Assembly: GCA_964622835.1 (NCBI GenBank)
Contig: CAZUSA010000001.1
Coordinates: forward strand, 223,468-287,467
DNA length: 64,000 bases
Direction: 5' to 3'
From: Candidatus Woesearchaeota archaeon
GTDB taxonomy: Archaea > Nanobdellota > Nanobdellia > SCGC-AAA011-G17 > UBA489
How positions within the stretch are numbered: position 1 is the first letter of the stretch; the number at the start of each line of letters is the position of its first letter. The notes under the pieces were generated by a model. That model made no database searches. It was not told the origin of the DNA and saw only the letters and a list, made by a program, of their open reading frames with translations. Below, piece after piece: positions 5,903 through 57,584 of the stretch. A program made the position numbers and the translations under genes.

Positions 5903-7291
5903 TTAGTAGAAGGGACCTTTTTCTTTCTTTTGCATGCCCCATGCTGCGTCATTTTCTTTATTGCTACCAAGATCACGTGGTGTAAACCGAACAGATCCGG
6001 GTCCTTCTTCATCTTTGTGTGAGAATTTGTGAAGGATAAACATGAGGATAACTGCTATGACAACGAGTATTAAGAGCGTCCACAACCAAGTCATACTCCC
6101 TGTTTTTTCTTCTGGTGGTGCAACCACAGGTGTATCATCAACGGGTGCAATAATATCTTCTACAACCACAGCGGAGGGTGTTGCTATTGCTTTGATAAGT
6201 AAGTCTGCTGCTTTCGTATGAATCTTATGGAGATAAATTTCTAGGTCATCTATACCATCCGCATCAACATCAACGTTAACAGTTTCATTAACACCTACAG
6301 CAAGAGTAAATGGTTCACTTGCTATCTCTAGTGTAATACCTTCATCGTCAAGTTCAATTACTTTGATGGTGTGTGATTCACCATTAACCATGAGAGAAAC
6401 TGCACCAAGTTTTTTGATGAGTCGTGCAATACCTTGATCAGGTAATTCACCGTATTTACCACCATAGTCTTCTATTGTCCCTTTACCAATAACTTTGTTT
6501 GCTATAGGTGCTTCAAAGGTAGGATCTGCAAAAGGTGATAGAGATTTAATAACAACACTAGTGAGTGTAAGATTAAAGAATGAAGTATTCAGTTGTTGCG
6601 CAAAGTCAAAGACAGTACATCGAATTTCTAGGATACCAATTTTTTCAAGGCCGTTGCCATCAATAGTTGCTTTAAGTTCTGTAGCTGAATTATCTGTAAG
6701 ACTAAGGTTTTCAAAGCTTGAAAGACCAGGATATCGAACAGCAATACTATTTCTTGTTGTGTTAAGTCCAGATGTGTCATCATTAGGATTACAGTTGATG
6801 AAAAGATCATTTCCATAGCCTAATTCTGCATCATCAGTGATATCTTGTTCAGCAATATCTTCTAACGTAACAGTTGAGTTAGGAACAGTGTTATCTAATT
6901 TAGGGTTATTTGCTTCATTAACACCCAGTGTTGTTGAATTTGTCGTACCATCAAAACCAACAACAGTAATATTAATATCAAAGTTTTTAGCATCCGTAAG
7001 AGCAGTACTATCAAAGGTAATATTCAAAGCTGTAACATTATCATCTTCTGAAACATTATGCGAAAAGAAAAATGTCCAAGACACACCATTATCTATACTA
7101 TAGTACCATGTTGTATTTGTTACATTTTCATTACCTGTACTAATATCTGACGCAGTTATATTAAGAAACTGCGCTCCACCAGTAAAAACAGTTGTATTAG
7201 TTGTAGGAGCTACAAATGTAAGTGAAACTTGTGCATGAACTACACTAGCGGTAAATAAAATAAACAATAGTACTAATAACGAACGCTGCAT
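5903..7291 (-). CDS. surface glycoprotein paralog A (signal peptide, N-sequon-rich ectodomain, C-terminal TM anchor)
   Basis: Signal MQRSLLVLLFILFTASVVHA|QVS (start chosen at the internal Met with GAGAGGTG upstream; the ORF track extends to 7324); more than 20 N-x-S/T sequons; C-terminal TM WLWTLLILVVIAVILMFIL plus a charged tail; N-terminal ~100 aa near-identical to the gene at 56310. Confidence 0.7.
   Translation of the reverse strand: MQRSLLVLLFILFTASVVHAQVSLTFVAPTTNTTVFTGGAQFLNITASDISTGNENVTNTTWYYSIDNGVSWTFFFSHNVSEDDNVTALNITFDSTALTDAKNFDINITVVGFDGTTNSTTLGVNEANNPKLDNTVPNSTVTLEDIAEQDITDDAELGYGNDLFINCNPNDDTSGLNTTRNSIAVRYPGLSSFENLSLTDNSATELKATIDGNGLEKIGILEIRCTVFDFAQQLNTSFFNLTLTSVVIKSLSPFADPTFEAPIANKVIGKGTIEDYGGKYGELPDQGIARLIKKLGAVSLMVNGESHTIKVIELDDEGITLEIASEPFTLAVGVNETVNVDVDADGIDDLEIYLHKIHTKAADLLIKAIATPSAVVVEDIIAPVDDTPVVAPPEEKTGSMTWLWTLLILVVIAVILMFILHKFSHKDEEGPGSVRFTPRDLGSNKENDAAWGMQKKEKGPFY
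6923..7171. repeat. about 250-bp segment, arm 1 of a long-range inverted repeat (inside surface glycoprotein paralog A)
   Basis: The reverse complement of 6923..7171 matches 56448..56696 at roughly 90-95% over manually checked stretches (for example cagtttcttaatataactgcgtcagatattagtacaggtaatgaaaa). Confidence 0.65.
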
Positions 7292-7428
7292 TATGCGCGG
7301 TACACACCTCTCTCGTATAACCATAACTGTACAATTACCAAAATTATTTATAAACCTTTTGGCTTATAAAAGAAGGATAAATTAAAGGCATAACCTTTAA
7401 GAATTGACGGAATGACTGAATCGTTAGC

Positions 7429-7512
7429 GTGGGAATGCCGGAGCGGTCAAACGGGGTAGCCTCAAAAGCTACTGGCTTAGTGCCTACCTAGGTTCGAGTC
7501 CTAGTTCCCACA
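7429..7512 (+). tRNA. tRNA-Leu (anticodon CAA)
   Basis: Manual fold: acceptor GTGGGAA/TTCCCAC, anticodon stem GTAGC/GCTAC with loop CTCAAAA, long variable arm, T-arm CTAGG-TTCGAGT-CCTAG, discriminator A. Confidence 0.8.
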
Positions 7513-7521
7513 TATTTCAAA

Positions 7522-8049
7522 ATGGATATCGGTTGGATTATTACATTAGTCATTGTAGGTATTTTTGTAGGGTATGCTATTGTTATTTTTGTTTTACCTC
7601 GTTTGTTTATTCCGTTTATGGGTTTTCGTAAGGAAAAAATTCCAAGAAAACTTCCAAGAAGAATACAACGTCGTATTCATTTATTGCGAAAGAGATCAAA
7701 AAACAAACAAGATTATTTGAAGAAGACATATAATTATTTGACACGCAGGTATCATGGTAAAAGAAATACAGTGTTAAAACGTCCAGGATTATGGTGGGAG
7801 AAAAACTTACAAACAATTTGGAGCCGTAAGGGGTTTTTACCATGTCATACATTTACTCATATGATGCGTATTTTTTTGGTGAAGAGTCGTATGTTTAAAG
7901 AAAAGGATGTTCGTGTGAATCACACATTTTATTGGTTTAATATTCATCAATATTTAGAGGTGCGTGTGAAAAAGAAGTGGCATAAAGTCGATGCGTGGGC
8001 GAAGGGTATTGGTATTAAGTTTGGAGATTATGGACGGTTGTTTAAGTGA
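7522..8049 (+). CDS. hypothetical basic protein with N-terminal TM
   Basis: TM IITLVIVGIFVGYAIVIFVL followed by a K/R-rich region; no domain recognised. Confidence 0.4.
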   Translation: MDIGWIITLVIVGIFVGYAIVIFVLPRLFIPFMGFRKEKIPRKLPRRIQRRIHLLRKRSKNKQDYLKKTYNYLTRRYHGKRNTVLKRPGLWWEKNLQTIWSRKGFLPCHTFTHMMRIFLVKSRMFKEKDVRVNHTFYWFNIHQYLEVRVKKKWHKVDAWAKGIGIKFGDYGRLFK

Positions 8050-8894
8050 TTACGTATGTTTTAGCTATTCTTGCTGGACTAGCAATTTATCAGGAATTTA
8101 ATTTATTTCTTATTCGAAAAAAGGTTCGTGGTCCTGTGAAGATGATGAAGGGGGCTAATTCGTTTTTTAAGAAAAGAGGAAAGAAAGCAGTATTACTCAT
8201 TCATGGTTTTACGAGCACGCCCCATGAGTTCAAAGAATTGGCAGCATATTTAGCGCGTAAGAATATTACGGTCTACGCACCACTCCTACCAGGCCACGGT
8301 ACGACTCCTGAACGATTAGCGGTGACGAAGTATTATCAGTGGATTGAGGCTGTTGATGAGGCATTAGCGATGTTAACGCAGGATTATAATGAGATTTATG
8401 TTATAGGTAATTCTTTTGGTGGTAATTTAGCGTTGCTTGCTGCAAATAAGTCTAAAAAAATTAAAGGTATTATAACATTAGGTGCTCCAATATTTTTCCG
8501 TAATGATAGAATAAATCGCTTTTTTGTAATACCCCTGTTAAAGCGCATTAAGATCTTCCAAAAGAAAAAGTATAGTAAGGATGCAGAACGTATTAATAGA
8601 ACAAGAAAAAGAATTCATTATTCTGCTATTCCGTTACGGTCGTTGACACATTTATTTAAAATTGTTTCATTGACAAAGAAGTATTTACCAAAGATTAAGA
8701 CACCTTTATTAATTATGGAAACTGATGATGATGAGATTATTAGTAATGAGAGTGGTTTATTTATCTTAGATCATGTCCGATCAAAGGATAAGCGTCTTGT
8801 TCGCATACCAAAGTCGTATCATGTGTTTATTCTTGATGTGTATGCAAAGCAAGCATTTAAGGAGATTGTGCACTTTATGGAGAAGAAACGATGA
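8046..8894 (+). CDS. alpha/beta-fold hydrolase (esterase/lipase family)
   Basis: AVLLIHGFTSTPHEF and the nucleophile elbow GNSFGG; 4-nt overlaps with both neighbours. Confidence 0.7.
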   Translation: MITYVLAILAGLAIYQEFNLFLIRKKVRGPVKMMKGANSFFKKRGKKAVLLIHGFTSTPHEFKELAAYLARKNITVYAPLLPGHGTTPERLAVTKYYQWIEAVDEALAMLTQDYNEIYVIGNSFGGNLALLAANKSKKIKGIITLGAPIFFRNDRINRFFVIPLLKRIKIFQKKKYSKDAERINRTRKRIHYSAIPLRSLTHLFKIVSLTKKYLPKIKTPLLIMETDDDEIISNESGLFILDHVRSKDKRLVRIPKSYHVFILDVYAKQAFKEIVHFMEKKR

Positions 8895-9595
8895 AAGTTG
8901 TAACAAATAGAAAAGGGAAGAAGATATTGTGGCGTACGGGTGATTTACCTACAGAGGATGGGTTAATTACTGAAGCTGATGTAAAGAAGGGTGTAATAAC
9001 AACGAAGAAAAAGACTACGTGGTTTGCATTTGATGCGTCATTTGTTGATGCTGTTGAACAATGTAAAACAGGTCCTGCGACGATTAGTGCAAAAGATGTT
9101 GGTACCATTCTTGCACGAACAGGGTTAAATAAAAAAAGTAGGGTTGTTGATGCGGGCACGGGTTCGGGTATTTTGGCTGCGTATTTAGGTAATATTACTG
9201 ATGATGTTACAACGTATGAAAAAAGAAAGGAACATTATACCCTTGCAAAAAGTAATTTGAAAAAACTGAGGAGTCCTGTTATTGCAAAATGTGCTGATAT
9301 TACAAAGGGTATTGCAGAAAAAAAGGTGGATGTTATTATCTTAGATTTACCTGCACCGTGGGATGTGTTTTCCCATGTTGAAACATCCTTGAAGTCTGGT
9401 GGGTATTGTGTGTGTTATGTGCCTAATATGACCCAAGTACAAGAGATTGTACTCCAAGCAAAGAATCATCCTTTTTTAGTCCAAGATATCATTGAAACGA
9501 TGGAACGGCAGTGGACTATCAAGGGCAGAGTATGTCGTCCAGAGCATGATTCTTTAGGCCATACAGCCTTTCTTATCTTCATACGAAAATATTAA
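8891..9595 (+). CDS. trmI: tRNA (adenine-N1)-methyltransferase TrmI/Gcd14-like
   Basis: SAM motif VVDAGTGSGILAAYL...DVIILDLPAPWDVF and the C-terminal arrangement typical of the TrmI family. Confidence 0.6.
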   Translation: MKVVTNRKGKKILWRTGDLPTEDGLITEADVKKGVITTKKKTTWFAFDASFVDAVEQCKTGPATISAKDVGTILARTGLNKKSRVVDAGTGSGILAAYLGNITDDVTTYEKRKEHYTLAKSNLKKLRSPVIAKCADITKGIAEKKVDVIILDLPAPWDVFSHVETSLKSGGYCVCYVPNMTQVQEIVLQAKNHPFLVQDIIETMERQWTIKGRVCRPEHDSLGHTAFLIFIRKY

Positions 9596-9659
9596 TTACT
9601 AAAAAGTAATAACAAAGAGAATATTTATAAAGAGAAAGATCCTTCTAAAAATACTAAAA

Positions 9660-10055
9660 ATGACATTAGGAACCCACCCACACGATGACACTATCTACTT
9701 ATTAACCGAAGGTAGTTGGGGCACACTCATCCAACAAGGCCTCCCAACAATAAGTGGAAAGGTTTTGAAATCCGTTAGGGGAATGGCACAATTTTTACCA
9801 TATGTTGATGAAATATACACAGGCAACGATACACCTGGACTTAAACGAATGAAAACAGTTGGAACCCCTTTAACTGCCGAATTAAATGGTCATGGAGCTA
9901 TGTTCCATCCAAGATCAAAAGAAACACTACAAGGAATAATTAGAATGAGTAATATTGATACAAGAAGAGCACTTGCATTTAAACAAACACAACTAGATGA
10001 ACTTGAAAAAACGACACCAACAAGAGATAATACTGCATTATATCACACAGAATAA
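9660..10055 (+). CDS. hypothetical protein
   Basis: ORF preceded by a TTTATAAA box; atypical amino-acid composition; no homology recognised. Confidence 0.3.
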   Translation: MTLGTHPHDDTIYLLTEGSWGTLIQQGLPTISGKVLKSVRGMAQFLPYVDEIYTGNDTPGLKRMKTVGTPLTAELNGHGAMFHPRSKETLQGIIRMSNIDTRRALAFKQTQLDELEKTTPTRDNTALYHTE

Positions 10056-10149
10056 ACAAATAACAACCTTTAAAAATAATCAAATTGGTGATACATAATA
10101 ATAAACGTCTTACTTCTTACTATTATGTAACACTAAAAACTATAAGAAA

Positions 10150-10175
10150 ACCCTATTTAAAAGGGTTTCGGAGTA
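10150..10175 (+). promoter_or_regulatory. candidate promoter/RBS of the PIN-ATPase-KH gene
   Basis: CCCTATTTAAAAGGG (a TATA element embedded in a palindrome) followed by a GGAG RBS. Confidence 0.3.
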
Positions 10176-10181
10176 AAAAAT

Positions 10182-11984
10182 ATGAAAAATAAAAAAACAT
10201 TTGTTATAGATACATCTGCAATTATTGAAAAAATTCCAACGAATAAAATTCATAATAAATCAATCAAAGAAGGAATGATTATCATTCCACACGCCGTAGT
10301 AGCCGAACTAGAAAATCAGGCAAACCGCGGTAAAGAGATTGGTCTTATTGGATTGGAAGAATTACAAGAGTTGCAGACAATTACCAAGAAATCAAAAACG
10401 TTATCGTTAGATTTTGTTGGTGATAGACCATCAGAACATCAGATTCGTCATGCGAAATCTGGTGAAATTGATGCATATATACGCAGTTTAGCAGAACAAC
10501 ATGATGCAGTATTAATTACTGCTGACCGTGTGCAAGCTGAATCTGCAAAAGCATTAGACATTGAAGTCGACTTTGTTTCTATTGTTAAGTATGAAAAGGA
10601 GTTAACACTCCAAGAATATATTGATGATGAAACGATGTCATTGCATATTAAAGAAAATATGCCTATCATGGCAAAGAAAGGTCACCCAGGTGACTGGAAG
10701 TTAGTTGCTGTGTCTAAAAAAACATTTTCTGGTGAACAAATTCAAGAATTCGCTAAGGAAATCATTGAAAAGACACGCTTAGATCGTAATGCGTATACAG
10801 AAATTTCAAGAAAGTGCACGACAGTTGTACAATACAAAAAATTACGTATTGTTATTGTTCGTCCACCGGTCGCTGATGGTTGGGAAATTACTATTGTCCA
10901 TCCGTTAACGAAATTAGACTTAGACGCATATAATCTTCCTGAAAAGTTAGCTGATCGTGTTGAACATAAAGCTCGCGGTATTATTATCGCAGGTGAAACA
11001 GGTTCAGGTAAAACAACATTAGCACAAGCTATTGCTGAATGGTACGTAAAAGATAACCGCATTGTAAAAACAATTGAATCACCACGTGACTTACAATTGC
11101 CCGATGCGGTAACACAATACTCAAAGAATTTTACTGAACACGGTGAAATTCATGATATCTTGTTCTTATCACGTCCAGACAATATTTTGTTTGATGAAAT
11201 GCGTGCAACGCCTGACTTTGAATTATACACAGACTTACGTCTTGCTGGTTCAAATATGATTGGTGTCTTACACGCAGCTCAAGCTATTGACGCTGTACAG
11301 CGGTTCCTTGCACGATTAGATATTGGTGTCATTCCTAATGTGGTTGATACAATTATCTTTATGGCAGCAGGTGAAATCAAGAAAGTATTAACGTTACAGA
11401 TGTTGGTTAAAGTACCAAGTGGTATGACTGAAAGCGACCTTGCACGCCCTATTATTGAAGTGCGTGATCACGACACAAATACACTGGAGTATGAAATTTA
11501 CAGTTATGGTGAGCAAACAGTTGTTATCCCTGTACAATCAAATACGAAAAGTGTTGGCATGGCACAACTAGCAGCTAAAGAAATTGAGTCATATTTTCGT
11601 AAGAAAGTATCTCATGTAAAAGTAGACGTTGTGAGCCAAAATCGTGCAACCGTCTACATACCTGAAGAATCCATTTCTAAGGTTATTGGAAGTGCTGGTA
11701 AAAACATACAACAAAGTGAAGAAGATCTTGGTATTAGTCTTGACATTCAAGAGTTAAAAGAAGCAAAGAAAAATATTCCTTTTTCTCTTAAAGAAGATAA
11801 GAAGAATATTATTATCTATACTGATCCTGGACAAATGCTTGAAGTGTGGGCAAATGGTCAGTTTGTTGCTTCTGCTATTTCAAGTAAGAAAGGCGAAGTA
11901 AAACTGAGTAAGAAAAGTACGCAAGGACGTGATGTCTTACGTGCTATTAATAAACGAAAGAGTAAACTTGAAGTAAAAGCTTAA
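10182..11984 (+). CDS. PIN-domain / PilT-like ATPase / KH-domain protein (archaeal COG1855-type)
   Basis: N-terminal PIN (FVIDTSAII), Walker A GETGSGKTTLAQAIAEWY, C-terminal KH-like VYIPEESISKVIGSAGKNIQ; TATA and GGAG RBS upstream. Confidence 0.7.
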   Translation: MKNKKTFVIDTSAIIEKIPTNKIHNKSIKEGMIIIPHAVVAELENQANRGKEIGLIGLEELQELQTITKKSKTLSLDFVGDRPSEHQIRHAKSGEIDAYIRSLAEQHDAVLITADRVQAESAKALDIEVDFVSIVKYEKELTLQEYIDDETMSLHIKENMPIMAKKGHPGDWKLVAVSKKTFSGEQIQEFAKEIIEKTRLDRNAYTEISRKCTTVVQYKKLRIVIVRPPVADGWEITIVHPLTKLDLDAYNLPEKLADRVEHKARGIIIAGETGSGKTTLAQAIAEWYVKDNRIVKTIESPRDLQLPDAVTQYSKNFTEHGEIHDILFLSRPDNILFDEMRATPDFELYTDLRLAGSNMIGVLHAAQAIDAVQRFLARLDIGVIPNVVDTIIFMAAGEIKKVLTLQMLVKVPSGMTESDLARPIIEVRDHDTNTLEYEIYSYGEQTVVIPVQSNTKSVGMAQLAAKEIESYFRKKVSHVKVDVVSQNRATVYIPEESISKVIGSAGKNIQQSEEDLGISLDIQELKEAKKNIPFSLKEDKKNIIIYTDPGQMLEVWANGQFVASAISSKKGEVKLSKKSTQGRDVLRAINKRKSKLEVKA

Positions 11985-12010
11985 AAGTTTACGACCATGG
12001 ACATCATGGT

Positions 12011-12085
12011 GAGCCCGTAGCTCAGCTTGGATAGAGCGATACCCTCCTAAGGTATAGGTCCCAGGTTCAAATCCTGGCGGGCTCG
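12011..12085 (+). tRNA. tRNA-Arg (anticodon CCT)
   Basis: Acceptor GAGCCCG/CGGGCTC, D-arm GCTC..GAGC, anticodon stem ATACC/GGTAT with loop CTCCTAA, T-arm CCAGG-TTCAAAT-CCTGG. Confidence 0.85.
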
Positions 12086-12086
12086 T

Positions 12087-12488
12087 TTATGTTTCTGTAG
12101 GTGGTTCATCCTTTGGTAGATATGCAACAATATCAGGATCGTATTGTTTAACAAGATCAATAAGTTCGGGACTTGGCGGAGGGTCGGTGAATTCCCCCAA
12201 CAAACGACCAAGATGACTTAAGGAAATACTTGTATCAGCAGGGACAATTAGTGAATCACGCTTTGCATAAGGACCCCAAGAAGTAAGATTCTGAAGATAA
12301 CTAGCAAGAGCAATAGCAGATTTCCTTCCTAGCTTTTCATAAAGACTCTCTGCACAAGTAGTTAGATTTCTAAAACGGGTTTCGATAAGTTGTACTACAA
12401 GCCCACCTATTTCTGGCCCTATTCTAATTTGTTCGGCTGTAAGAAGATTATGGGATCGATGCGTAGGATAGTTTCTTCCTGGAACCAT
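12087..12488 (-). CDS. hypothetical protein (orphan ORF between two tRNA genes)
   Basis: 133-aa ORF filling the tRNA-Arg/tRNA-Gly gap; proline-rich C-terminus; no homology recognised; could be spurious. Confidence 0.3.
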   Translation of the reverse strand: MVPGRNYPTHRSHNLLTAEQIRIGPEIGGLVVQLIETRFRNLTTCAESLYEKLGRKSAIALASYLQNLTSWGPYAKRDSLIVPADTSISLSHLGRLLGEFTDPPPSPELIDLVKQYDPDIVAYLPKDEPPTET

Positions 12489-12571
12489 AATAGACCTATA
12501 AAAAAACTCATTAATAACAGTTACCTTTACAGAATAAGGCTTAAAAAGGATATAATTGATGGGTTTGTATT

Positions 12572-12646
12572 CGCGTCAGTCGTCTAATCTGGTTTAGGAT
12601 AAAAGCCTTCCAAGCTTTTGATGAGGGTTCAAATCCCTCCTGGCGC
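12572..12646 (+). tRNA. tRNA-Gly (anticodon TCC)
   Basis: Acceptor GCGTCAG/CTGGCGC (one G-U pair), anticodon stem AAAGC/GCTTT with loop CTTCCAA, T-arm GAGGG-TTCAAAT-CCCTC, discriminator A; the D-arm is slightly atypical. Confidence 0.65.
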
Positions 12647-12650
12647 ATAC

Positions 12651-16489: not shown

Positions 16490-16614
16490 GAATCCCTCTT
16501 TTTATAGCACACTGTACCAACACCAATCCAAAAGCCCTTTTTAAACTATTTAAAAGTATTGTCCAAAAGAAGCGAACACAAAGGTTTTTAATGCGTTAAA
16601 CAGGGTGTGCAGTC

Positions 16615-17502: not shown

Positions 17503-17503
17503 C

Positions 17504-19677: not shown

Positions 19678-19699
19678 GCCACCTACACGGGCTAAGACG

Positions 19700-20635: not shown

Positions 20636-20678
20636 ATATGAAGGGAATCCTTATAAATCTCAAAACATAGGTGCAACC

Positions 20679-36976: not shown

Positions 36977-36989
36977 AGAGATCACCACA

Positions 36990-43498: not shown

Positions 43499-43556
43499 CA
43501 GAGGACACTAAAAAGATAGATTATAAACCTTTCCCGAGCACAATCCTTTTAAGACG

Positions 43557-45914: not shown

Positions 45915-46017
45915 CAAAAAATCTAAGAAAAAGTGCCATTTAAATACTTTTTCAGAAAAGAAAGAAAAACAACCGAAATGATTATAAAACTCAAAAAAAT
46001 CGGAAAAAAAGGTAAAA

Positions 46018-48640: not shown

Positions 48641-48641
48641 T

Positions 48642-50358: not shown

Positions 50359-51589
50359 TTTTTACCCTCCAAACAATGAAGAATAATGCAATAAAGAGTA
50401 TTGCACCGACACCTTGCAAGAGGGTTACAACTTGTGCAAGAGTATCATGGTAGAGATAGATGAGGATAAGTTCAAGTGCTAAAAAGAAAGCAAATAAGTA
50501 AAGGAAGGTATATTTTTTAAGTGAAAGTAAGTAGAGAGAAAATAATTTTGAAAATGAAATGGTTGCCATGAATATACCGTAGGGAACGATAAGTGGTGTA
50601 ACAGAAAGATATGCAGAACCAAAGAGTAATTGTACAACAAAGGTACCAAAGAAGTGATATCCTAAGATAATAGGCACGGTAATGATTCCAATGATGCCAG
50701 CTGATTTCCACATCAATGATTTATGTGCTCCTCCTTGTTCGGAGAGTTCAACAACTTTAGGGAACATTACTTGGACGATGGAAAATGATGCAAAGAATAC
50801 TATTTTTCCTATGAGACTTATGACTGCATAATGTCCTGCATCTATTGCGGGAAAAAAGTGTTTAATCAAGAAAAGATCTAGGGAATAAAATGCTGTAAAG
50901 AAAAGAACGGTCACAAACATGGGTAATGTATATTTGTATATTTCTCGAAGAGGGAATGATTCTTTTGTTCCTTGAATGTATGTTTTTATTTTTCGAATGC
51001 CGTATATTGTTGCTAAGGCATAAGAAAGGATGATTGCAACAAGTGCTCCCCCAACACTGTATCCTAATATCACAAGCAATATTCCTGCAATGAGTTTTGT
51101 TGTTCCTTCTACGGCAAGGTTCATACCGTATGTGCGAAAGTGTTGTAGTCCTTGAAGAAAGCCACGAACAATAGAGAGTTCAGGAACGACGAGTATGGCC
51201 AGTATTGAAATAAACAAGAGATAGTAGGGTATGCGCAAATAGGATGAAAGAAAGATATTGACAATTAATAAAAGAACAAATGCTATGATTGTCCCATATA
51301 TCATTTTTTTGGTGTAGTCTGAATAAAGATAACGAAGGCGTTCAGTTTGTTTTTTCAGATGTAATAATGTTACAAATTTGGATATACTAAATTGGAATGT
51401 TGTTGCAAGTATACCCATTAACGCCGTAAGGGCTATGAGTGTTGCTAAGACACCATAACTTTCCGGTCCAAGTGTCCTTCCCATGTAAAAGTGAAAGAGA
51501 AATCCTGTAAGATTAATGACACCTGTTCCAATAAGTAAATATAAATTGTCTTTAAAAAAATGTTTGTTATCTGCCATTATATCACCCAT
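50351..51589 (-). CDS. oligosaccharide flippase (MOP/Wzx-like)
   Basis: 412 aa with about 12 TMs and a Wzx-like architecture. Confidence 0.6.
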   Translation of the reverse strand: MGDIMADNKHFFKDNLYLLIGTGVINLTGFLFHFYMGRTLGPESYGVLATLIALTALMGILATTFQFSISKFVTLLHLKKQTERLRYLYSDYTKKMIYGTIIAFVLLLIVNIFLSSYLRIPYYLLFISILAILVVPELSIVRGFLQGLQHFRTYGMNLAVEGTTKLIAGILLVILGYSVGGALVAIILSYALATIYGIRKIKTYIQGTKESFPLREIYKYTLPMFVTVLFFTAFYSLDLFLIKHFFPAIDAGHYAVISLIGKIVFFASFSIVQVMFPKVVELSEQGGAHKSLMWKSAGIIGIITVPIILGYHFFGTFVVQLLFGSAYLSVTPLIVPYGIFMATISFSKLFSLYLLSLKKYTFLYLFAFFLALELILIYLYHDTLAQVVTLLQGVGAILFIALFFIVWRVKNE

Positions 51590-52581
51590 ATAAGTGCAGC
51601 AAAGAAAGCTTGTATGACAAAGATGAAGTAGGTAATTTGTTTTTCAGTGTAGTTTCCGTTTTTCATAAACAAGTGTGTTACTGAATAGGGCGTGTCATAT
51701 TTTGATTGTATATTTCCATGCACCCATATGCCATAACTTGCTGCAGTAAAACGACTACGGAGTTTCAAAAAGAATTCTACAAAGAAAGGTATTGAAATAA
51801 TAAGTGCTGCTTTTTCAAGGTTACCGAGGATAGCTACGCTTGCAAGTGTCCCACCTAAGAAGTATGTTAATGAATCGCCTGGAAGAATTTTTGCTGGTGT
51901 TTTGTTGTAAAACCAAAAGGCACAGAGTGATGTAAAGGCAAGGAGTGCTAAGAGTGCTGCTATGTATTGGTTATGAACAAAGGCGTAGAAACCTAATGAT
52001 CCTAAATAAATAATTCCCATGCCCACTTCCAAACCATTTAATCCTGCAAGCATATTAACCATGTTTGCTGCACCGACAAATCCTATGGGTACAAAGAGTA
52101 ATGGATAAATAACACCTAAGGCTACATCACCAAAGAAGGGCAAATAAATTGTTGATGTTCCTGCGTGGGTGACCATTAGGGGTATTGCTGCAATAAGTGT
52201 GAGAAAGGGTTTTTGCCATTGGCGTAAACCTCCTGATGCTTCTTTGGATTTGGTAATGAGCACATCATCAAGGAATCCGATGATTGTTACTAAGAAAATA
52301 GATATAAACCCTGCAAAGAGAACGAGAAATTGTCCGCTTTCAAGAGTAAGTTCTGCTGCACCTATATCAAAGAATGTGCGAAAAAAGATGAAGAGCATGA
52401 ATCCTACGAAGAATCCTGCAAAGACGGCAAGACCTCCAGATATAGGAACGAGTGGCCGGTGTTCTTTGTTTTGGTCTTTGACAACAAGGTCTATGCGACG
52501 AAGGTATCTGATTAACCAAGGCGTCGTGAGATAGGTAATAAATGCACCGATAGCTGCCACGACAAATGCGAGGATGTTCAT
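51577..52581 (-). CDS. UDP-GlcNAc:polyprenyl-phosphate GlcNAc-1-P transferase (MraY/WecA/AglH family)
   Basis: 334 aa, 10-11 TMs, matches the MraY/WecA/AglH family. Confidence 0.65.
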   Translation of the reverse strand: MNILAFVVAAIGAFITYLTTPWLIRYLRRIDLVVKDQNKEHRPLVPISGGLAVFAGFFVGFMLFIFFRTFFDIGAAELTLESGQFLVLFAGFISIFLVTIIGFLDDVLITKSKEASGGLRQWQKPFLTLIAAIPLMVTHAGTSTIYLPFFGDVALGVIYPLLFVPIGFVGAANMVNMLAGLNGLEVGMGIIYLGSLGFYAFVHNQYIAALLALLAFTSLCAFWFYNKTPAKILPGDSLTYFLGGTLASVAILGNLEKAALIISIPFFVEFFLKLRSRFTAASYGIWVHGNIQSKYDTPYSVTHLFMKNGNYTEKQITYFIFVIQAFFAALIWVI

Positions 52582-52624
52582 ACTGCTTGTGGTTCTATGG
52601 GCTTTTAAAAATCTATGTCTTAGC

Positions 52625-53515
52625 CTATAATGGACTTATTACAGGTGTAACGTAGACTTCAAGGACCCCCGCAATAACAAGAACGATAACAGCGAGAATA
52701 ATGAGGTGCAATGCATCTTTCATGACGCGTCCAAAGACTGATGTGGAAAAGTCGTGTCGTACCACGGCAACACTGATGAGTCCGCCGGCAAGACCGCCAA
52801 TAAAATATGCGAGTATTTCTGGTAGTCCATGGATGAAATAGCGTAATAATCCTAAGGCATAGACTTGAAAATAACTGCCTATACTTGTTAATCCCACCGT
52901 GGCTGCATAACTGCTAATGTGTGTTCGAAAGAAATTTCCAAGTGCTGCGCTGATGACGGTTGCATTCCATGTTAAAATAAAGATGGCTCCCGCCCCATAG
53001 AAGAAACTAAAGAAGACACAGAAGAGCATGACTTTAAGATTGTTTCCAAAGATGCGAAGGAATAAACCATTAGCATAGGTCTTTCCTGAAACTTCGTTGA
53101 AACCAATGGCTCGCGTGTTTATTTCGTTGATGGTTTGTTCTTGTGAGGAAAAGAGTCCTGGTGTTTCATCTGTTCCTTCGACGATGTCTACAGGTAGGAA
53201 GATGTATGCTAAGGAAAATGTTGCTACGAATCCTAAGAACAGAAACATCAATGCAAGCAAAAGTTTGGAGTGTTCTTTGAGAAGATTTTTTTCACTAGAA
53301 ATGGTTAAGTCTTTTTTTTCTTCTGCTTTGAGTAAGGTGTACATTAACGGAACGGCTGCCATGACGGTTAGCAAAACCATAACAATGGTTGCTTGTTCTT
53401 TGAAGACCCAAAGAGAAAGAAAGATACCAAGAAGTGCGTAGACAGCACCAAGAAAAAAGAGATCCCATGGTTTTTTTTCTAAACGTTCTGGGGAGGTTAA
53501 TGATTCAAGCACCAA
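52625..53515 (-). CDS. SpoIIM/DUF95-like membrane protein
   Basis: FIHGLPEILAYFIGGLAGGLIS motif of the stage II sporulation M-like family. Confidence 0.5.
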   Translation of the reverse strand: MVLESLTSPERLEKKPWDLFFLGAVYALLGIFLSLWVFKEQATIVMVLLTVMAAVPLMYTLLKAEEKKDLTISSEKNLLKEHSKLLLALMFLFLGFVATFSLAYIFLPVDIVEGTDETPGLFSSQEQTINEINTRAIGFNEVSGKTYANGLFLRIFGNNLKVMLFCVFFSFFYGAGAIFILTWNATVISAALGNFFRTHISSYAATVGLTSIGSYFQVYALGLLRYFIHGLPEILAYFIGGLAGGLISVAVVRHDFSTSVFGRVMKDALHLIILAVIVLVIAGVLEVYVTPVISPL

Positions 53516-53573
53516 TATCTATCACCTTTTAGTGAAAGGTGGTATGTGCATTTATATATGTTTAGGATATCTA

Positions 53574-54656
53574 TTAATCGTCTTCTCGTCGTATGTTGTG
53601 TTTTGTTACACGAAGTTCTCCGTCTTTGAGTCGAATGATAAGATCGTCTCCATTACTAAATGAACTTCCTTTTGTGACAAATCGTGGTAGTGTGAGCAAT
53701 CCTTTGTCGATGTGTGCTTCTATGTAGTGTTCATCAAATCCGTTTTTTTCTTTTTTTGGCGTAGGAAGTTTTTTGTCTTGTTTGAAGGCAACAGTACCAT
53801 CGTATAATGCTTTTGCGACGGATTTTGCAACGTTTTTGTTTGTGTATTTCATGAGTCCTTTGAGGCCGGGACTGAGGTTTATTTCAATAACTGAAGGTTT
53901 ACGCCCTACTAAAATATCCACAGCGGCTATATCTGCTCCAAGGGCACGTGCTGCTTTAACGGACATTTTTTCAATGTCTGGTGTTAACGTTACAGGTACT
54001 CCTTTTCCACTTAAGTGAATGTTTGCTCGAACGTCTGTTGATGATGATACTCGTTTCATTGCACCGACAACTTTTCCTCCTGCAACAATAACACGAAGGT
54101 CTTCACTTTTTATGTCTCCTGTCTCTATGTAGTCTTGTATAATATAGGGTTGGTGAAAAACATCGAGTGCATCGATCATGGATCGTGCGGAACTTTCTGA
54201 GTCTGCAAATAAGACACCTTTACCATGGGTTCCTTCGGGAATTTTAATGATAATGGGATAGTGTACTTTGCCAAGAAGATTTTTTGCTTGTTGTGCGTCT
54301 GATATAAAATAACTTGTGGGTATGTTAATACCTTTTTGTTGAAGTTCTAATGTTCCTAAAAGTTTGTTATGTCCTAACGTAAATGCGTTGGGTTTTAGTG
54401 GCATGTATACTTTTTTGTATAGTGCACGCGTAAGTGCTCGTTGTAATAAAATATATTTGTGACTGCCGCGTATATAGACACAGTCAAAGTCGTCAAGTTC
54501 TCCAACACTGTCTTTAACACTAAAGCCTTGTTTGTCATCTAGTGCTATTTCAATATTTTTAAGATGTAGTTCAGTAACAATATCAAAGAATGCCCGTGCT
54601 TCTTTAGCGATATTTTTGCTGGTTTCTCCTTGTAAACTGATGACACAAAGTTTCAT
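53574..54656 (-). CDS. RimK-like ATP-grasp ligase (alpha-L-glutamate ligase family) with about 85-aa C-terminal extension
   Basis: ATP-grasp core (HYPIIIKIPEGTHGKGV; DIAAVDIL...VIEINLSPG); start set at MKLCVISLQ. Confidence 0.65.
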   Translation of the reverse strand: MKLCVISLQGETSKNIAKEARAFFDIVTELHLKNIEIALDDKQGFSVKDSVGELDDFDCVYIRGSHKYILLQRALTRALYKKVYMPLKPNAFTLGHNKLLGTLELQQKGINIPTSYFISDAQQAKNLLGKVHYPIIIKIPEGTHGKGVLFADSESSARSMIDALDVFHQPYIIQDYIETGDIKSEDLRVIVAGGKVVGAMKRVSSSTDVRANIHLSGKGVPVTLTPDIEKMSVKAARALGADIAAVDILVGRKPSVIEINLSPGLKGLMKYTNKNVAKSVAKALYDGTVAFKQDKKLPTPKKEKNGFDEHYIEAHIDKGLLTLPRFVTKGSSFSNGDDLIIRLKDGELRVTKHNIRREDD

Positions 54657-54660
54657 TGAT

Positions 54661-55059
54661 TTACTCCTTGGGAAGGTTATCAAGGTCTTTTGTGTTTTTA
54701 ATAAGGTGTTGGTTTGATTGTTGCAGTTTCTTCGTAGGGTCTATAATAAAGCCTTCACGGAGGATATTTTTGCCTATGAGGAGGGGGTAGCGGAGGTTTT
54801 CTCGTGATGCAATGGTAAATGATGCGGTGAGGGTTTTTCCACCGATAGTGATAGTTGCATCAACAACAGGTCGTATGCTTTCACCGTGGCTGCTTGAAAC
54901 CTTTGTTGTAGTATGTGCTGGACCTAACTTGAGAATCTCTGCAAGGCGTTGATCAATACTGCTTGTACTTGCTCCACTGTCTACTTTTGCACGAATATGC
55001 TTTGTATTAATGATAACATCTTCATAAAATCCAAGGGTTTGTGGATTGTCTGTCATCAC
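54661..55059 (-). CDS. retropepsin-like aspartic protease (Zn_protease/DUF785-type RimK partner)
   Basis: AKVDSGASTSSI (D-S/T-G-A catalytic motif); immediately upstream of the RimK-like gene, the usual two-gene module. Confidence 0.55.
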   Translation of the reverse strand: MMTDNPQTLGFYEDVIINTKHIRAKVDSGASTSSIDQRLAEILKLGPAHTTTKVSSSHGESIRPVVDATITIGGKTLTASFTIASRENLRYPLLIGKNILREGFIIDPTKKLQQSNQHLIKNTKDLDNLPKE

Positions 55060-55148
55060 TCAAAAAGATGGAAGAGCCTATAAAAAGGTAACGAAGAGCT
55101 CACAAAAGAGCGCAAAAGGCTTAAAAATAAAGGGGTGTTTATAAATGC

Positions 55149-56162
55149 ATGGCGCGAGAAGTAATAGAAAATTATTCAAAGTTCTTCTTCTTAGCTAGTT
55201 TTATAGGGGTTATTCTGTTATCTATTTATTTGGTTAAATCGTATATTATTTCGTTGGTTGGTGCGACACTTCTTGCGTATATTTTTTATCCGGTGTATGT
55301 AGCCATACAAAAAAAAGTACGTGGTAAAAAAACAAGTTCTCTTCTTACAACGTTGTTAGTTGTTATTATTATTTTTATTCCGTTAATTTTTGCAGCTAAT
55401 GCATTGATTGGTGAGTCTGTAGAATTTTTTCATATGACCAAAGATTTGGATTTGGTAAGTTTAGGAAATGGTTTAGGATTTGATTTGGGTGGTGCCGAAA
55501 ATCTTAATGAACAGATTGGTGAAAATTTAAATAAAATTTCTTTAGAGATTGCGCGTGCAACATCTGAGTTTGTGGTCTCATTGCCGAAGAAGATTTTGAA
55601 TATTTTTGTGATGTTGTTTTTGATGTATTTCTTGTTCATGGAAGGAAACAAATGTATTGAAAAGATTAAGAATCATATTCCCTTAAAAGCAAAACAAAAG
55701 CATGAGTTATCGAAGAAATTTAATAATGTTATTTATGCGTCATTGTATGGGATGGTGGTTACGGCATTTGTTCAAGGAGCTGTAGGTGCATTAGGATTTT
55801 GGGTCTTTGGCGTTAGTTCTCCAATATTATGGGGGTTAGTAACTATCATAGTAGCTATTTTACCGTTTGTAGGTGCTGCTCTTGTATGGTTGCCTGCGGC
55901 AATATACAAGTTAGCTGTAGGTGAAATGTTTAATGGAATTGGCCTCTTATTATATGGTGTCTTAATCATTAGTACGATTGATAATTTTATTCGTCCAAGT
56001 ATTGTTGGTAGTCGTGGTAATGTCCATCCTGCTCTCGTCCTGTTAGGTGTCTTAGGTGGGTTAGAGCTCTTTGGATTTTTGGGTATTATACTTGGTCCGT
56101 TAATCCTTTCTATTGGGTCTATGTTCTTAGATATGTATCTTCTTGAGAAGAAACCACAATAA
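55149..56162 (+). CDS. AI-2E family transporter (UPF0118/PerM-like)
   Basis: 8-TM topology with the C-terminal GLELFGFLGIILGPLIL segment typical of the family. Confidence 0.6.
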   Translation: MAREVIENYSKFFFLASFIGVILLSIYLVKSYIISLVGATLLAYIFYPVYVAIQKKVRGKKTSSLLTTLLVVIIIFIPLIFAANALIGESVEFFHMTKDLDLVSLGNGLGFDLGGAENLNEQIGENLNKISLEIARATSEFVVSLPKKILNIFVMLFLMYFLFMEGNKCIEKIKNHIPLKAKQKHELSKKFNNVIYASLYGMVVTAFVQGAVGALGFWVFGVSSPILWGLVTIIVAILPFVGAALVWLPAAIYKLAVGEMFNGIGLLLYGVLIISTIDNFIRPSIVGSRGNVHPALVLLGVLGGLELFGFLGIILGPLILSIGSMFLDMYLLEKKPQ

Positions 56163-56179
56163 AAAGTTCCTTTAAAAAA

Positions 56180-56236
56180 TTTATATACTCCTTAAGAAGA
56201 GTAAAACATTGTGTGATAAGGAGAAAGCTTTATATA
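56180..56236 (+). promoter_or_regulatory. two perfect TTTATATA boxes upstream of surface glycoprotein B
   Basis: TTTATATA at 56180..56187 and 56229..56236; a GAGGTGG RBS follows at 56296. Confidence 0.4.
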
Positions 56237-56309
56237 CAGCTCAGCGCTTCGCTTTCTCAGTGACAATTATATCACAAAATATCAATATAACACGTGAGGT
56301 GGAAAGATA

Positions 56310-57584
56310 ATGATAGATAAGAGGATGACCTACAGCACACTTGTTGTTGGTTTATTCATTCTGTTGGTTGCAGGTATTGCTAGCGCTCAAGTCTCGCTTA
56401 CCTTCGTTGCTCCAACAAACACAAACATAAATCTTACCGGTGCAACACAGTTTCTTAATATAACTGCGTCAGATATTAGTACAGGTAATGAAAACGTAAC
56501 AAATACAACATGGTATTACAGTACAGATGATAGTTTAACGTGGACATTTTTCTTCTCGCATAATGTTTCAGAAGATGATAATGTTTCAGCTTTAAATATT
56601 ACCTTTGACACTACTGGTCTTGCCATTGCTGACAGTTCAAACATTGATATTAATATTACTGTTGTAGGATTTGATGGTACAACCAACTCAACAACGATTG
56701 AGGGTCTACAACTTGATAATACAGTGCCGAATTCAACAGTAGCTGCTACTGATAATAATGATGATAGTCTAACTAGTAAGTTTGACTATGGTACTGATGT
56801 AAATATCGATTGTGATGCTGGTGATTTAACAACGGGTGTTCTAACAAGTGGAAGTTATGTTTCGGTAAAATTCCCTGGTATAAATTCATACGAAAACTTA
56901 AGCTTAACCAAAAATACGGCAACAAGTCTAAAAGCTGTATTGAAGGGTGTAAAAACTGAAAAACTTGGAACGTATAGCATTCGATGTCATACTCAAGATG
57001 TTCTTGGTTTTAGTAACACTTCTGAATTAAACCTAACAGCTCAAGAAGTTGTATTAAAGGGTACGAGTGCTGCTGCAATTCCAGGCTTCGAACCTCCAGT
57101 CGCTAAGACGTCTATTGGTTCAGGTACTGTTGCTGATGGTGGTCGTTTAACTACTGATGGTATAAGTCGATTAATGAAGGTAAATGCTGGTCTAAGAATG
57201 GACATTAACGGTGAAAAACACACTGTTGAAGTTGATACATTATCCGATGATAGTGTGACCTTAACAGTATCTTCAGAACCGTTTGATGTAACCATTAATG
57301 CTGGTGAATCTGAAGTTGTTGATGTGAATGGCGATGGTGTTGGTGACGTAAAAGTAACCTACCACAAGCTCTTTGCAAAAACATATGCTGACTTAACCTT
57401 TGAATTGGTAAGTGAACCCGTAACTGACACAGGATCTGATGATTCGTCTGATGATGCTGCAGTCTTTGATGATAGTGAACCTGAAGTGGTGCCACAATCT
57501 CAAGGCGGACTCACAGTAACGCTTGCCGTTATAGTGATCATTTTGATCATTGGGTATGCGTTAATTAAAGGAAAGAAGAAGTAA
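56310..57584 (+). CDS. surface glycoprotein paralog B (signal peptide, sequon-rich ectodomain, C-terminal TM)
   Basis: Signal LVVGLFILLVAGIASA|QVS; residues about 26-130 near-identical to paralog A; many N-x-S/T sequons; C-terminal D/S-rich stalk plus TM LTVTLAVIVIILIIGYALI KGKKK; GAGGTGG RBS 7 nt upstream. Confidence 0.75.
   Translation: MIDKRMTYSTLVVGLFILLVAGIASAQVSLTFVAPTNTNINLTGATQFLNITASDISTGNENVTNTTWYYSTDDSLTWTFFFSHNVSEDDNVSALNITFDTTGLAIADSSNIDINITVVGFDGTTNSTTIEGLQLDNTVPNSTVAATDNNDDSLTSKFDYGTDVNIDCDAGDLTTGVLTSGSYVSVKFPGINSYENLSLTKNTATSLKAVLKGVKTEKLGTYSIRCHTQDVLGFSNTSELNLTAQEVVLKGTSAAAIPGFEPPVAKTSIGSGTVADGGRLTTDGISRLMKVNAGLRMDINGEKHTVEVDTLSDDSVTLTVSSEPFDVTINAGESEVVDVNGDGVGDVKVTYHKLFAKTYADLTFELVSEPVTDTGSDDSSDDAAVFDDSEPEVVPQSQGGLTVTLAVIVIILIIGYALIKGKKK
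56448..56696. repeat. arm 2 of the inverted repeat (inside surface glycoprotein paralog B)
   Basis: See arm 1; the arms are about 49 kb apart and bracket the glycosylation super-cluster. Confidence 0.65.

What the first reader, a model, noticed from the sequence alone, without database searches (positions are those of the whole stretch)
6923..56696. Inverted near-identical about 250-bp segments in two surface-glycoprotein paralogs bracketing the glycan locus
Genes 5903..7291 (-) and 56310..57584 (+) encode sequon-rich surface proteins whose N-terminal about 100 aa, and the underlying DNA, are roughly 90-95% identical, while the rest has diverged. As inverted repeats about 49 kb apart they could mediate inversion of the whole envelope/glycosylation segment or gene conversion between paralogs (surface-antigen variation). 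Either outcome would alter expression context or antigenicity
Basis: seen in the sequence. Interest (0 to 1): 0.7.

Follow-up and report, generated by a model that had tools for sequence, protein, structure and literature searches.

The report
Recombining surface-glycoprotein paralogues bracketing glycan locus
Two old duplicate genes for a sugar-coated surface protein of a tiny symbiotic-type archaeon (Woesearchaeota) sit head-to-head at the ends of its 49-kb cell-envelope gene cluster; they have swapped their outermost domain by gene conversion, and assemblies of a sister species suggest the same gene pair can recombine to rearrange the cluster.

Summary
Genes A (5903-7324, -) and B (56310-57584, +) share one inverted tract, 6929-7171 / 56448-56696. 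It is 86% identical and is the only repeat of 40 nt or more in the window.

The tract is a gene-conversion patch, not protein-level conservation. dS is 0.42 inside the tract and about 1.7 (saturated) outside. Conserved peptide motifs on both sides carry saturated synonymous differences. The shared domain is the most variable part of the family (18-31% between orthologues, 74-79% between A and B). The C-terminal domains place A and B in two ancient clades.

The head-to-head arrangement around the N-glycosylation/envelope locus recurs in another species, about 41 kb apart on one contig.

No inversion is seen in the window species; all assemblies recovered share one orientation. In a sister species, contigs that are 99.98-100% identical over 11 kb differ exactly inside this gene. 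One is a crossover within a 39-nt identity. It joins the B-side flank to the A gene body and the A downstream flank, which is the predicted inversion junction.

No invertase or retroelement is present, so general homologous recombination is inferred. Read-level proof is missing.

The parts
5903..7324 (-). Gene A: A-type surface glycoprotein (473 aa). Layout: signal peptide, hypervariable N-terminal domain, two beta-sandwich domains, TM helix, conserved cytoplasmic tail (..FTPRDLG..GPFY).
   Evidence: ORF. It is the syntenic orthologue in 6 related loci, with alpha/beta-hydrolase, methyltransferase and PIN-ATPase upstream and DRG GTPase, NUDIX and PTH2 downstream. AF2 model and Ig-like adhesin fold matches. 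15 sequons. No Pfam family.
56310..57584 (+). Gene B: B-type paralogue (424 aa). Same ectodomain plan, different C-domain clade, TM helix ..IIGYALIKGKKK, no cytoplasmic tail.
   Evidence: ORF. The C-domain clusters with the B-type clade (46-64% identity) and is 31-50% identical to A-types. The upstream region is orthologous to the 'leader-2/X' genes of L014 and L021. The same AI-2E neighbour lies upstream and the same Anp1-like GT downstream.
6929..7171 (-). Left arm of the shared tract (codons 52-132 of A). It encodes most of the N-terminal variable domain.
   Evidence: 86% identity to the right arm, dS 0.42, dN 0.077.
56448..56696 (+). Right arm of the shared tract (codons 47-129 of B).
7125..7171 (-). 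Longest perfectly identical stretch (47 nt; partner 56448-56494). It is a candidate crossover site.
   Evidence: It is longer than the 39-nt identity at the sister-species crossover.
7345..7354 (-). TATA-like box TTTATAAATA, 26 nt upstream of the A start codon. It lies inside the segment that would invert.
   Evidence: Read from the sequence. The same box precedes the L004 orthologue.
56180..56236 (+). Two TATA-like boxes (56180-56187 and 56229-56236) upstream of B, followed by a GGTGG ribosome-binding-like site at 56298-56302. They lie inside the segment that would invert.
   Evidence: They are conserved in L014 and L021.
7325..56309 (.). Intervening 49-kb envelope/N-glycosylation locus: tRNA-Leu, hydrolase, PIN-ATPase, unknown 879-aa and 425-aa proteins, SecDF, AglB/STT3 (22220-24859), glycosyltransferases, PMT_2 proteins, flippases, GDP-mannose dehydratase and epimerases, three B12-radical-SAM enzymes, RimK/RimB-like, AI-2E transporter.
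   Evidence: Pfam; tRNAs. No recombinase, integrase or reverse transcriptase was found among the ORFs scanned.

Best explanation
A and B are two ancient paralogues of a Woesearchaeota type-I membrane protein. The protein is heavily N-glycosylated and its ectodomain is built of Ig-like beta-sandwich domains. The two genes are kept in a conserved, divergent (5' ends facing inwards) inverted arrangement at the two ends of the 41-49 kb envelope/N-glycosylation locus.

The roughly 245-bp near-identical segment is a gene-conversion patch. Non-reciprocal homologous recombination copied the membrane-distal N-terminal domain from one paralogue to the other. That domain is hypervariable between species, whereas the membrane-proximal domain, TM helix and tail stayed specific to each paralogue. 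This is shown by sequence statistics and phylogenetic incongruence.

Such exchange of distal modules recurs in other lineages (shown). The same short identities can also resolve as crossovers. Because the genes are inverted, a crossover would flip the whole locus and swap promoter, leader and distal domain between the two membrane anchors. This is inferred for the window. It is supported by recombinant contigs in a sister species.

The enzyme is inferred to be the general recombination machinery (RadA-type), because no dedicated recombinase is nearby.
For: 1. The tract is unique in the window and bounded on both sides.

2. Nei-Gojobori dS is 0.42 and dN 0.077 over the tract's 81 codons. Elsewhere dS is 1.67 or saturated and dN is 0.67. 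At identical amino acids, codons are the same or different 53/14 times inside the tract and 63/71 outside (Fisher p = 2e-5). The max-chi-square interval is aa 49-121, and 0 of 500 permutations reach the observed value.

3. The flanking identical peptides AQVSLTFVAPT and LDNTVPNSTV have many synonymous differences. This is an internal control against a selection-only explanation.

4. Incongruence between domains. In the N-terminal block A and B are 74-79% identical, while A is only 18-31% identical to its orthologues. In the C-domain A and B are 39-40% identical, while A is 58-67% identical to its orthologues. The C-domain splits the family into clean A and B clades.

5. Recurrence. In MAG SI054_bin47, A-type P0004 (-, 64341-65720) and B-type P0021 (+, 106647-107930) lie on one contig in the same head-to-head arrangement. 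They share the middle domain at 71% aa identity, against the usual 30-42%, over 343 nt at 72.6%. In the sister species, A-type P0007 and B-type P0013 share the middle domain at 63%.

6. Crossover products in the sister species. L012 is identical to L014 (B-side flank) over nt 1-10765 with no mismatches, and identical to L004 (A body plus GTPase flank) over 11,011 nt. The three-way overlap is 39 nt, GACAACACAAATCCGCAAGCAAACATTACGATTGCGGAT. Its flanks are collinear with window 48642-56162 and with 5869 down to 1419. L018 joins the end of the B gene, a third paralogue's leader, the A body and the GTPase.

7. Cassette replacement. L005 and L013 are 100% identical except for a block of about 330 nt covering the N-terminal domain, which is 43-63% identical.

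8. No recombinase or reverse transcriptase is present, and the mismatch spectrum is not adenine-specific.
Against: The tract is not young (dS 0.42; 28 substitutions plus an indel), so conversion in this genome is not demonstrably ongoing.

All assemblies of the window species have one orientation, and no SNP falls inside the tract.

Every contig recovered for the SI054_bin47 species shows the standard context, including the 8 that carry its B-type gene.

The sister-species recombinants are single contigs from short-read metagenome assemblies. L018 passes through an A/X identity of unknown length (at least 100 nt), so it could be an assembler path switch. L012 could arise by deletion from an L018-type arrangement rather than directly by inversion. 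The relative orientation of the paralogues in the sister species is inferred from two other species, not seen. No reciprocal junction was found.
Confidence: 0.8

Rival explanations
1. A programmed, frequent and reversible inversion switch operates in this very genome. The 49-kb locus flips between two orientations within the population, and the shared tract is maintained as the recombination site.
For: The inverted bookend architecture is conserved across species. Both promoters lie inside the segment. Exact identities of up to 47 nt are present. The sister-species junction variants sit among otherwise 99.98-100% identical DNA. JGI contig L014 ends exactly 100 nt into a shared tract, as expected at an assembly-graph branch.
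Against: Only one orientation is seen for the window species. The arms are 14% diverged, which argues against frequent exchange. No invertase gene is present. All contigs recovered for the SI054_bin47 species show the standard context.
Confidence: 0.12
2. Both paralogues obtained the same N-terminal domain independently from outside the genome, by strain-to-strain replacement of a variable cassette, rather than from each other.
For: L005 and L013 show that the N-terminal domain can be replaced as a cassette in an otherwise identical gene. No donor paralogue for that cassette was found.
Against: It needs two independent imports of the same module with matching boundaries. The simplest donor for either copy is the other copy, 49 kb away. 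A comparable A/X sharing occurs in the sister species.
Confidence: 0.06
3. There was no recombination. The segment is simply the best-conserved part of two paralogues, held by purifying selection or codon bias.
For: dN/dS in the tract is low, about 0.18.
Against: The segment is the least conserved part of the family between species, at 18-31% identity. Identical flanking peptides show saturated synonymous change. Synonymous identity is significantly clustered.
Confidence: 0.02
4. The tract is an assembly artefact or a diversity-generating retroelement target pair.
For: Retroelement-driven hypervariation of surface proteins is reported for DPANN archaea in the literature found.
Against: The arms differ at 14% of positions and are reproduced in independent assemblies. 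No reverse transcriptase was found. Mismatches are 16 transitions and 12 transversions with no adenine bias.
Confidence: 0.01

Closest known systems
Campylobacter fetus sap locus: RecA-dependent inversion among S-layer protein paralogues with conserved 5' regions (recalled from my own knowledge; the primary papers are only listed as references in PMC4232325)
   Same: Surface-protein paralogues lie in opposite orientation and share a conserved 5' coding region while the remainder is divergent. General homologous recombination, not a dedicated invertase, is used. The products are chimeric or alternative surface proteins.
   Different: In C. fetus a small promoter-bearing segment flips, and one promoter serves many silent cassettes. 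Here each gene has its own promoter. The segment is a 41-49 kb locus of dozens of envelope genes. The shared region is an internal patch rather than the whole 5' end. The organism is a DPANN archaeon. Switching has not been observed directly.
Ureaplasma parvum MBA/UU172 elements: inversions at inverted repeats inside N-terminal paralogues that generate chimeric genes (PMC3047005)
   Same: Inverted repeats lie within the N-terminal coding parts of membrane-protein paralogues. Chimeric genes arise by exchanging the parts downstream of the repeat.
   Different: That paper attributes the Ureaplasma events to site-specific recombination at short repeats. Here the repeats are ordinary homologous coding sequence, no recombinase gene is adjacent, and non-reciprocal conversion is the best-documented outcome.
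Gene-conversion-based surface variation and concerted evolution of paralogous surface antigens (for example Plasmodium falciparum MSP paralogues, PMC10919680)
   Same: Patchy transfer of sequence between paralogous surface-protein genes produces domain-wise phylogenetic incongruence.
   Different: There is no archive of silent cassettes here. Only two or three expressed-looking paralogues are present. The organism and envelope biology differ.
Replacement flexible genomic islands and cell-wall islands of aquatic prokaryotes, such as Haloquadratum walsbyi (PMC4033161, PMC4535781)
   Same: A cluster of surface-glycoprotein and glycosylation genes differs between close strains, with homologous recombination implicated. 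The L005/L013 cassette replacement fits this picture.
   Different: Those islands are swapped between strains through conserved flanks. Here the exchange is between paralogues within one genome, and the paralogues themselves form the inverted boundaries of the locus.

Membership tests
Inter-paralogue gene conversion | A tract of elevated nucleotide (synonymous) identity bounded on both sides by diverged homologous sequence | tested here: met
   dS is 0.42 inside and about 1.7 outside. 0 of 500 permutations reach the observed max chi-square. Flanking identical peptides have saturated synonymous sites.
Inter-paralogue gene conversion | Phylogenetic incongruence between the tract and the rest of the gene | tested here: met
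   In the N-terminal block A and B are 74-79% identical, against 18-31% for A versus its orthologues. In the C-domain A and B are 39-40% identical, against 58-67% for A versus its orthologues. A and B clades separate cleanly.
Inter-paralogue gene conversion | Donor and acceptor lie in the same genome | tested here: met
   Both are on the window. Both proteins are also recorded on a 293,497-nt contig.
Invertible segment (inverton or shufflon) driven by a site-specific recombinase | A dedicated invertase or tyrosine/serine recombinase gene is adjacent | tested here: not met
   Pfam scans of the ORFs flanking both repeats and through the locus found none.
Invertible segment (any mechanism) | Both orientations are present in a population of the same organism | tested here: inconclusive
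   For the window species only one orientation is seen in the available assemblies. For the sister species alternative junctions exist (L004, L018, L012) in 99.98-100% identical backgrounds, but no reads were available.
C. fetus sap-type recombinational switching of surface-protein paralogues | Oppositely oriented paralogues share a 5' coding region, and recombinants exchange the remainder | tested here: met
   The recombinant ORFs P0010 and P0018 are intact and in frame.
C. fetus sap-type recombinational switching of surface-protein paralogues | A single promoter on the invertible element gives mutually exclusive expression | tested here: not met
   Each gene has its own conserved TATA-like boxes and start context.
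Diversity-generating retroelement target | A reverse transcriptase plus a template/variable repeat pair with adenine-specific mismatches | tested here: not met
   No reverse transcriptase was found. The mismatch spectrum is mixed.
Archaeal S-layer protein (Pfam S_layer_C and related) | A match to an S-layer family model | tested here: not met
   A and B match no Pfam family. A separate S_layer_C protein lies at 60295-62931. The fold search gives only generic Ig-like adhesin and S-layer-like beta-sandwiches.

The most novel reading that the evidence does not exclude
The conserved head-to-head pair of paralogues is a recombinational switch built into the Woesearchaeota envelope locus. Crossovers in short shared tracts reversibly flip the entire 41-49 kb N-glycosylation/envelope gene cluster. 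Each flip re-pairs interchangeable promoter, leader and distal-domain modules with two different membrane anchors, one carrying a conserved cytoplasmic tail and one without. Conversion between the copies keeps the modules compatible. The result would be standing surface heterogeneity in an ultra-small, probably host-attached archaeon, with no dedicated recombinase.
Probability: 0.15. Interest if true: 0.85.

Novelty: new variant of a known kind. Interest (0 to 1): 0.66.

Why it matters
DPANN archaea are thought to live attached to other cells, and their surface proteins are presumed to mediate that contact, yet almost nothing is known about how those proteins vary. Reported mechanisms are point-mutation hot spots in Nanoarchaeota surface proteins (PMC6142677) and retroelement hypermutation (papers found). 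One survey notes that chromosomal inversions have been minimally investigated in Archaea (PMC10028968).

This locus points to a third route: modular exchange of the distal domain between two anciently duplicated, N-glycosylated surface proteins by ordinary homologous recombination. The gene architecture is conserved across species and brackets the whole glycosylation machinery.

The finding also defines a large protein family with no Pfam model. The exhaustive search returned 3,976 cluster representatives at E <= 1e-3 and 80 at E <= 1e-30.

Finally, it offers concrete junctions that can be tested with existing metagenome reads.

Tried and rejected
1. An exact look-up of B's contig failed twice. 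B's neighbourhood in another sample was recovered instead through a cluster member.

2. The genome contigs and metagenome-contig scans did not contain the window's own contig or close strains, only other species. Orientation polymorphism in the window species therefore could not be tested beyond L001 and L019.

3. A search for a donor of the swapped N-terminal cassettes of P0003 and P0006 returned nothing, not even the two proteins themselves.

4. No reciprocal recombinant (A-type N-terminus on a B-type body) was found in the sister species.

5. A site-specific invertase was rejected, since no such gene is in the window. A retroelement target was rejected, since there is no reverse transcriptase and no adenine bias. 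Selection-only conservation was rejected. Assembly collapse was rejected, since the arms differ by 14% and are reproduced in other assemblies.

6. GC skew in 4-kb bins shows no informative discontinuity at the repeats.

7. The AF2 model is confident only for the two membrane-proximal beta-sandwich domains. The N-terminal domain has pLDDT below 50, so nothing can be said about its fold. Foldseek hits are generic Ig-like adhesin domains.

8. The word-indexed homologue search suggested a family of about 12 proteins. The exhaustive search showed this was a sensitivity artefact.
Full report
**1. The observation**

The window is AT-rich (36% G+C). It carries archaeal markers: AglB/STT3, an S_layer_C protein and a PIN-ATPase.

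Gene A is an ORF at 5903..7324 on the minus strand. Gene B is at 56310..57584 on the plus strand.

Their 5' coding parts align as an inverted repeat. The repeat finder returns only two inverted pairs in the 64 kb, and they are adjoining pieces of one repeat: 224 nt at 84% and 57 nt at 89%, with 49,248 nt between the arms. It finds no direct repeat of 40 nt or more.

The core tract is 6929-7171 / 56448-56696. It has 215 identical columns of 249, with exact runs of 47, 30, 22 and 20 nt.

Otherwise the description is correct.

Both proteins carry about 3.1 N-x-S/T sequons per 100 aa, against 0.64 for the window's other long ORFs.

The DNA between the genes encodes AglB/STT3, GT1, GT2 and GT4 glycosyltransferases, PMT_2 proteins, flippases, GDP-mannose dehydratase and epimerases, three B12-radical-SAM enzymes and SecDF.

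**2. The tract is a recombination patch, not conserved protein sequence**

Three independent arguments support this.

(a) Synonymous sites.
- In the 81 tract codons, dS is 0.42 and dN is 0.077.
- In the other 336 aligned codons, dS is 1.67 (saturated upstream of the tract) and dN is 0.67.
- Among identical, degenerate amino acids the codon is the same 53 times and different 14 times inside the tract. Outside it the counts are 63 and 71 (p = 2e-5).
- An unsupervised max-chi-square scan picks aa 49-121, and none of 500 permutations reaches its score.

(b) An internal control. The peptides AQVSLTFVAPT, just upstream of the tract, and LDNTVPNSTV, just downstream, are identical in A and B. Yet they are encoded with many synonymous differences. 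Where only selection on the protein acts, the DNA has diverged.

(c) Family context.
- The shared domain is the most variable part of the family. A is 18-31% identical to its orthologues there, while A and B are 74-79% identical.
- In the membrane-proximal C-domain, A is 58-67% identical to its orthologues but only 39-40% identical to B.
- With B-type proteins from an exhaustive profile search added, the C-domain splits the family into an A clade (58-100% identity within it) and a B clade (46-64%). Identity between the clades is 31-50%.
- A and B are therefore old paralogues, and the N-terminal identity must be a later transfer.

Both edges of the tract lie inside the gene. The event was therefore non-reciprocal (conversion or a double crossover), not a single crossover.

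The tract is not very young: it has 28 substitutions and a 6-nt indel. The differences cluster in two patches, so the tract may be a mosaic of events or may have diversified afterwards.

**3. What the proteins are**

Neither protein matches any Pfam family.

An AlphaFold model of A (mean pLDDT 61) shows, in order:
- a signal peptide;
- a low-confidence N-terminal domain (residues 24-142);
- two confident beta-sandwich domains (about 145-255 and 280-385);
- a TM helix (412-435);
- a tail.

Foldseek matches Ig-like extender domains of bacterial adhesins and the Deinococcus HPI S-layer protein. This is generic surface-protein architecture.

A-type proteins end in a conserved cytoplasmic motif (..FTPRDLG..PFY). 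B-type proteins end right after the TM helix (..IIGYALIKGKKK).

The named relatives are all 'Candidatus Woesearchaeota' MAGs.

**4. The architecture is conserved**

A is the syntenic orthologue in six related loci. Hydrolase, methyltransferase and PIN-ATPase lie upstream. DRG-type GTPase, NUDIX and PTH2 lie downstream.

B sits between an AI-2E-family transporter and an Anp1-like glycosyltransferase. Its upstream region has two TATA-like boxes and a GGTGG site before the ATG. That region aligns with the upstream regions of B-type genes in L014 and L021.

In MAG SI054_bin47 both paralogues lie on one contig, JABIKK010000013.1. The A-type gene is at 64341-65720 (-) and the B-type gene at 106647-107930 (+). 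Their 5' ends face each other across 40.9 kb of glycan and envelope genes. This is the same layout as in the window.

In that genome the two copies share the middle domain instead. It is 71% identical in protein, against the usual 30-42%, over 343 nt at 72.6%. This looks like an older exchange of a different module.

**5. Recombinants in a sister species**

JGI sample 3300027835 gives two contigs.
- L004 has the A context: tRNA-Leu and hydrolase, then P0007, then GTPase.
- L014 has the B context: glycan genes, RimK, RimB-like and AI-2E, then P0013.
- After P0013 comes the start of a third paralogue, X. It has a leader beginning MNNKR.., and the last 100 nt before the contig end are identical to the 5' part of P0007.

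ENA contig L012 (name k141_1903575) is identical to L014 from nt 1 to 10765 with no mismatches. It is identical to L004 over 11,011 nt. The three sequences overlap in a 39-nt identity that encodes DNTNPQANITIAD.

L012's gene P0010 is an intact chimera of the B' N-terminus and the A body. Its flanks are collinear with window 48642-56162 on one side and with 5869 down to 1419 on the other. This is exactly the junction that a crossover between inverted paralogues would create.

A fourth contig, L018 from NCBI, joins the end of P0013, the X leader, the A-type N-terminus, the A body and the GTPase. It matches L014 at 100% and L004 at 99.98%.

L012 could come from the standard arrangement by inversion at the 39-nt tract. 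It could also come from an L018-type arrangement by deletion between direct copies. In either case at least one inversion with end points in these paralogues is needed, provided the contigs are correct.

Caveats:
- These are single short-read contigs.
- L018 passes through an identity of unknown length and could be an assembler path switch.
- L012's 39-nt repeat is far shorter than the k of 141 implied by its contig name, which makes collapse unlikely but not impossible.
- The orientation of the paralogues in this species is inferred from the window and from SI054_bin47.
- No reciprocal junction was found.

**6. Cassette replacement in another species**

L005 and L013 are 100% identical over about 2.3 kb except for a block of about 330 nt. 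The block covers residues of roughly 29-138, the N-terminal domain, and is only 43-63% identical.

The same domain boundaries therefore behave as a replaceable module.

**7. The window species itself**

JGI contigs L001 (window 3124-17291, 99.96%) and L019 (window 49146-60001, 99.87%) have the window's orientation. No SNP falls inside either arm.

There is thus no evidence of inversion or of ongoing conversion in this population. The depth of evidence is only two or three assemblies.

**8. Mechanism**

No invertase, integrase or reverse transcriptase was found in the window. The mismatch spectrum is 16 transitions and 12 transversions with no adenine bias. A site-specific inverton and a diversity-generating retroelement are therefore rejected.

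The inferred agent is general homologous recombination acting on short identities. A tract of 39 nt sufficed in the sister species, and the window offers 47 nt.

Both promoters lie inside the segment. A crossover in the window would exchange a near-leaderless A-type 5' end (TATA box 26 nt before the ATG) with a B-type 5' end carrying a 5' UTR and a ribosome-binding-like site. The protein sequences would barely change.

In the sister species, where the N-terminal domains differ, the same event changes which distal domain sits on which anchor.

**9. Comparison with known systems**

The logic resembles several bacterial cases:
- RecA-dependent sap inversion in Campylobacter fetus (my own knowledge; cited only in the reference list of PMC4232325);
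- the Ureaplasma MBA/UU172 inversions that generate chimeric genes (PMC3047005);
- gene conversion between paralogous surface antigens (PMC10919680).

Strain-level replacement of cell-wall islands by homologous recombination is known in Haloquadratum and other aquatic prokaryotes (PMC4535781, PMC4033161).

My literature searches found no such system described for DPANN archaea. One survey notes that archaeal chromosomal inversions have been minimally investigated (PMC10028968).

I therefore class the finding as a new variant of a known kind. Conversion in the window is well supported. The inversion reading is plausible and partly supported by related genomes. Read-level data would settle it.

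Noticed in passing
L005:10040-10370 versus L013 (species of FLOH01000717.1): Two contigs are 100% identical over about 2.3 kb except for a block of about 330 nt that encodes the N-terminal variable domain, which is 43-63% identical. This is a clean cassette replacement whose donor was not found.
   Followed up: partly
L014:11655-11907 and L018:756-2270 (sister species): A third paralogue start (leader MNNKRLVNGLLIG.., with its own TATA box) lies directly downstream of the B-type gene. Its first 100 nt after the leader are identical to the A-type gene. The window species has only one gene between the AI-2E transporter and the Anp1-like GT.
   Followed up: partly
family-wide; proteins P0082 (2,560 aa) and P0088 (2,339 aa): The word-indexed search found 12 relatives, but the exhaustive profile search found 3,976 representatives (80 at E <= 1e-30). 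The family has no Pfam model. Two giant proteins match the N-terminal-domain part of the profile in 14-16 separate stretches, so the variable domain also occurs as tandem arrays.
   Followed up: no
window 20679-22223, 27264-28661, 41855-43498: Three paralogous B12-binding radical-SAM enzymes are embedded in the glycosylation locus, next to AglB and glycosyltransferases. This suggests unusual methylated or otherwise modified glycans or lipids.
   Followed up: no
window 12651-13928 and 13850-16489 (both -): A 425-aa protein (weak TSP3 and MopE-like motif hits) and an 879-aa protein with no Pfam match form a pair. The pair is conserved in synteny in L003, L005 and L007 and may be a further envelope component.
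   Followed up: no
window 7522-8049 (+): A 175-aa basic, membrane-anchored ORF lies between tRNA-Leu and the hydrolase, immediately upstream of gene A's promoter. It has no counterpart in loci L002-L007.
   Followed up: no
window 3279-3395 (+): A stand-alone 5S rRNA gene (76 bits) is overlapped by a probably spurious ORF at 3267-3716. JGI contig Ga0114932_10000591 ends about 150 nt from it, at window position 3124.
   Followed up: no
L012:12613-13254 and 14542-15384 (same in L018): Relative to the window, the sister species has an Ogg-HhH glycosylase gene inserted between the GTPase and NUDIX genes. It also has a LAGLIDADG_3 homing-endonuclease-like ORF after PTH2.
   Followed up: no
window 60295-62931 (-); L022-L024:14147-16768 and 5433-8054: A protein of about 875 aa matching S_layer_C lies a few kb beyond gene B in both the window and the SI054_bin47 species. 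The B-type gene therefore sits between the glycan locus and the likely true S-layer gene.
   Followed up: no
window 10182-11984 (+): A conserved 600-aa PIN-domain protein with a T2SSE-like ATPase and a KH domain is present. It is 68-73% identical across species, far above its neighbours.
   Followed up: no
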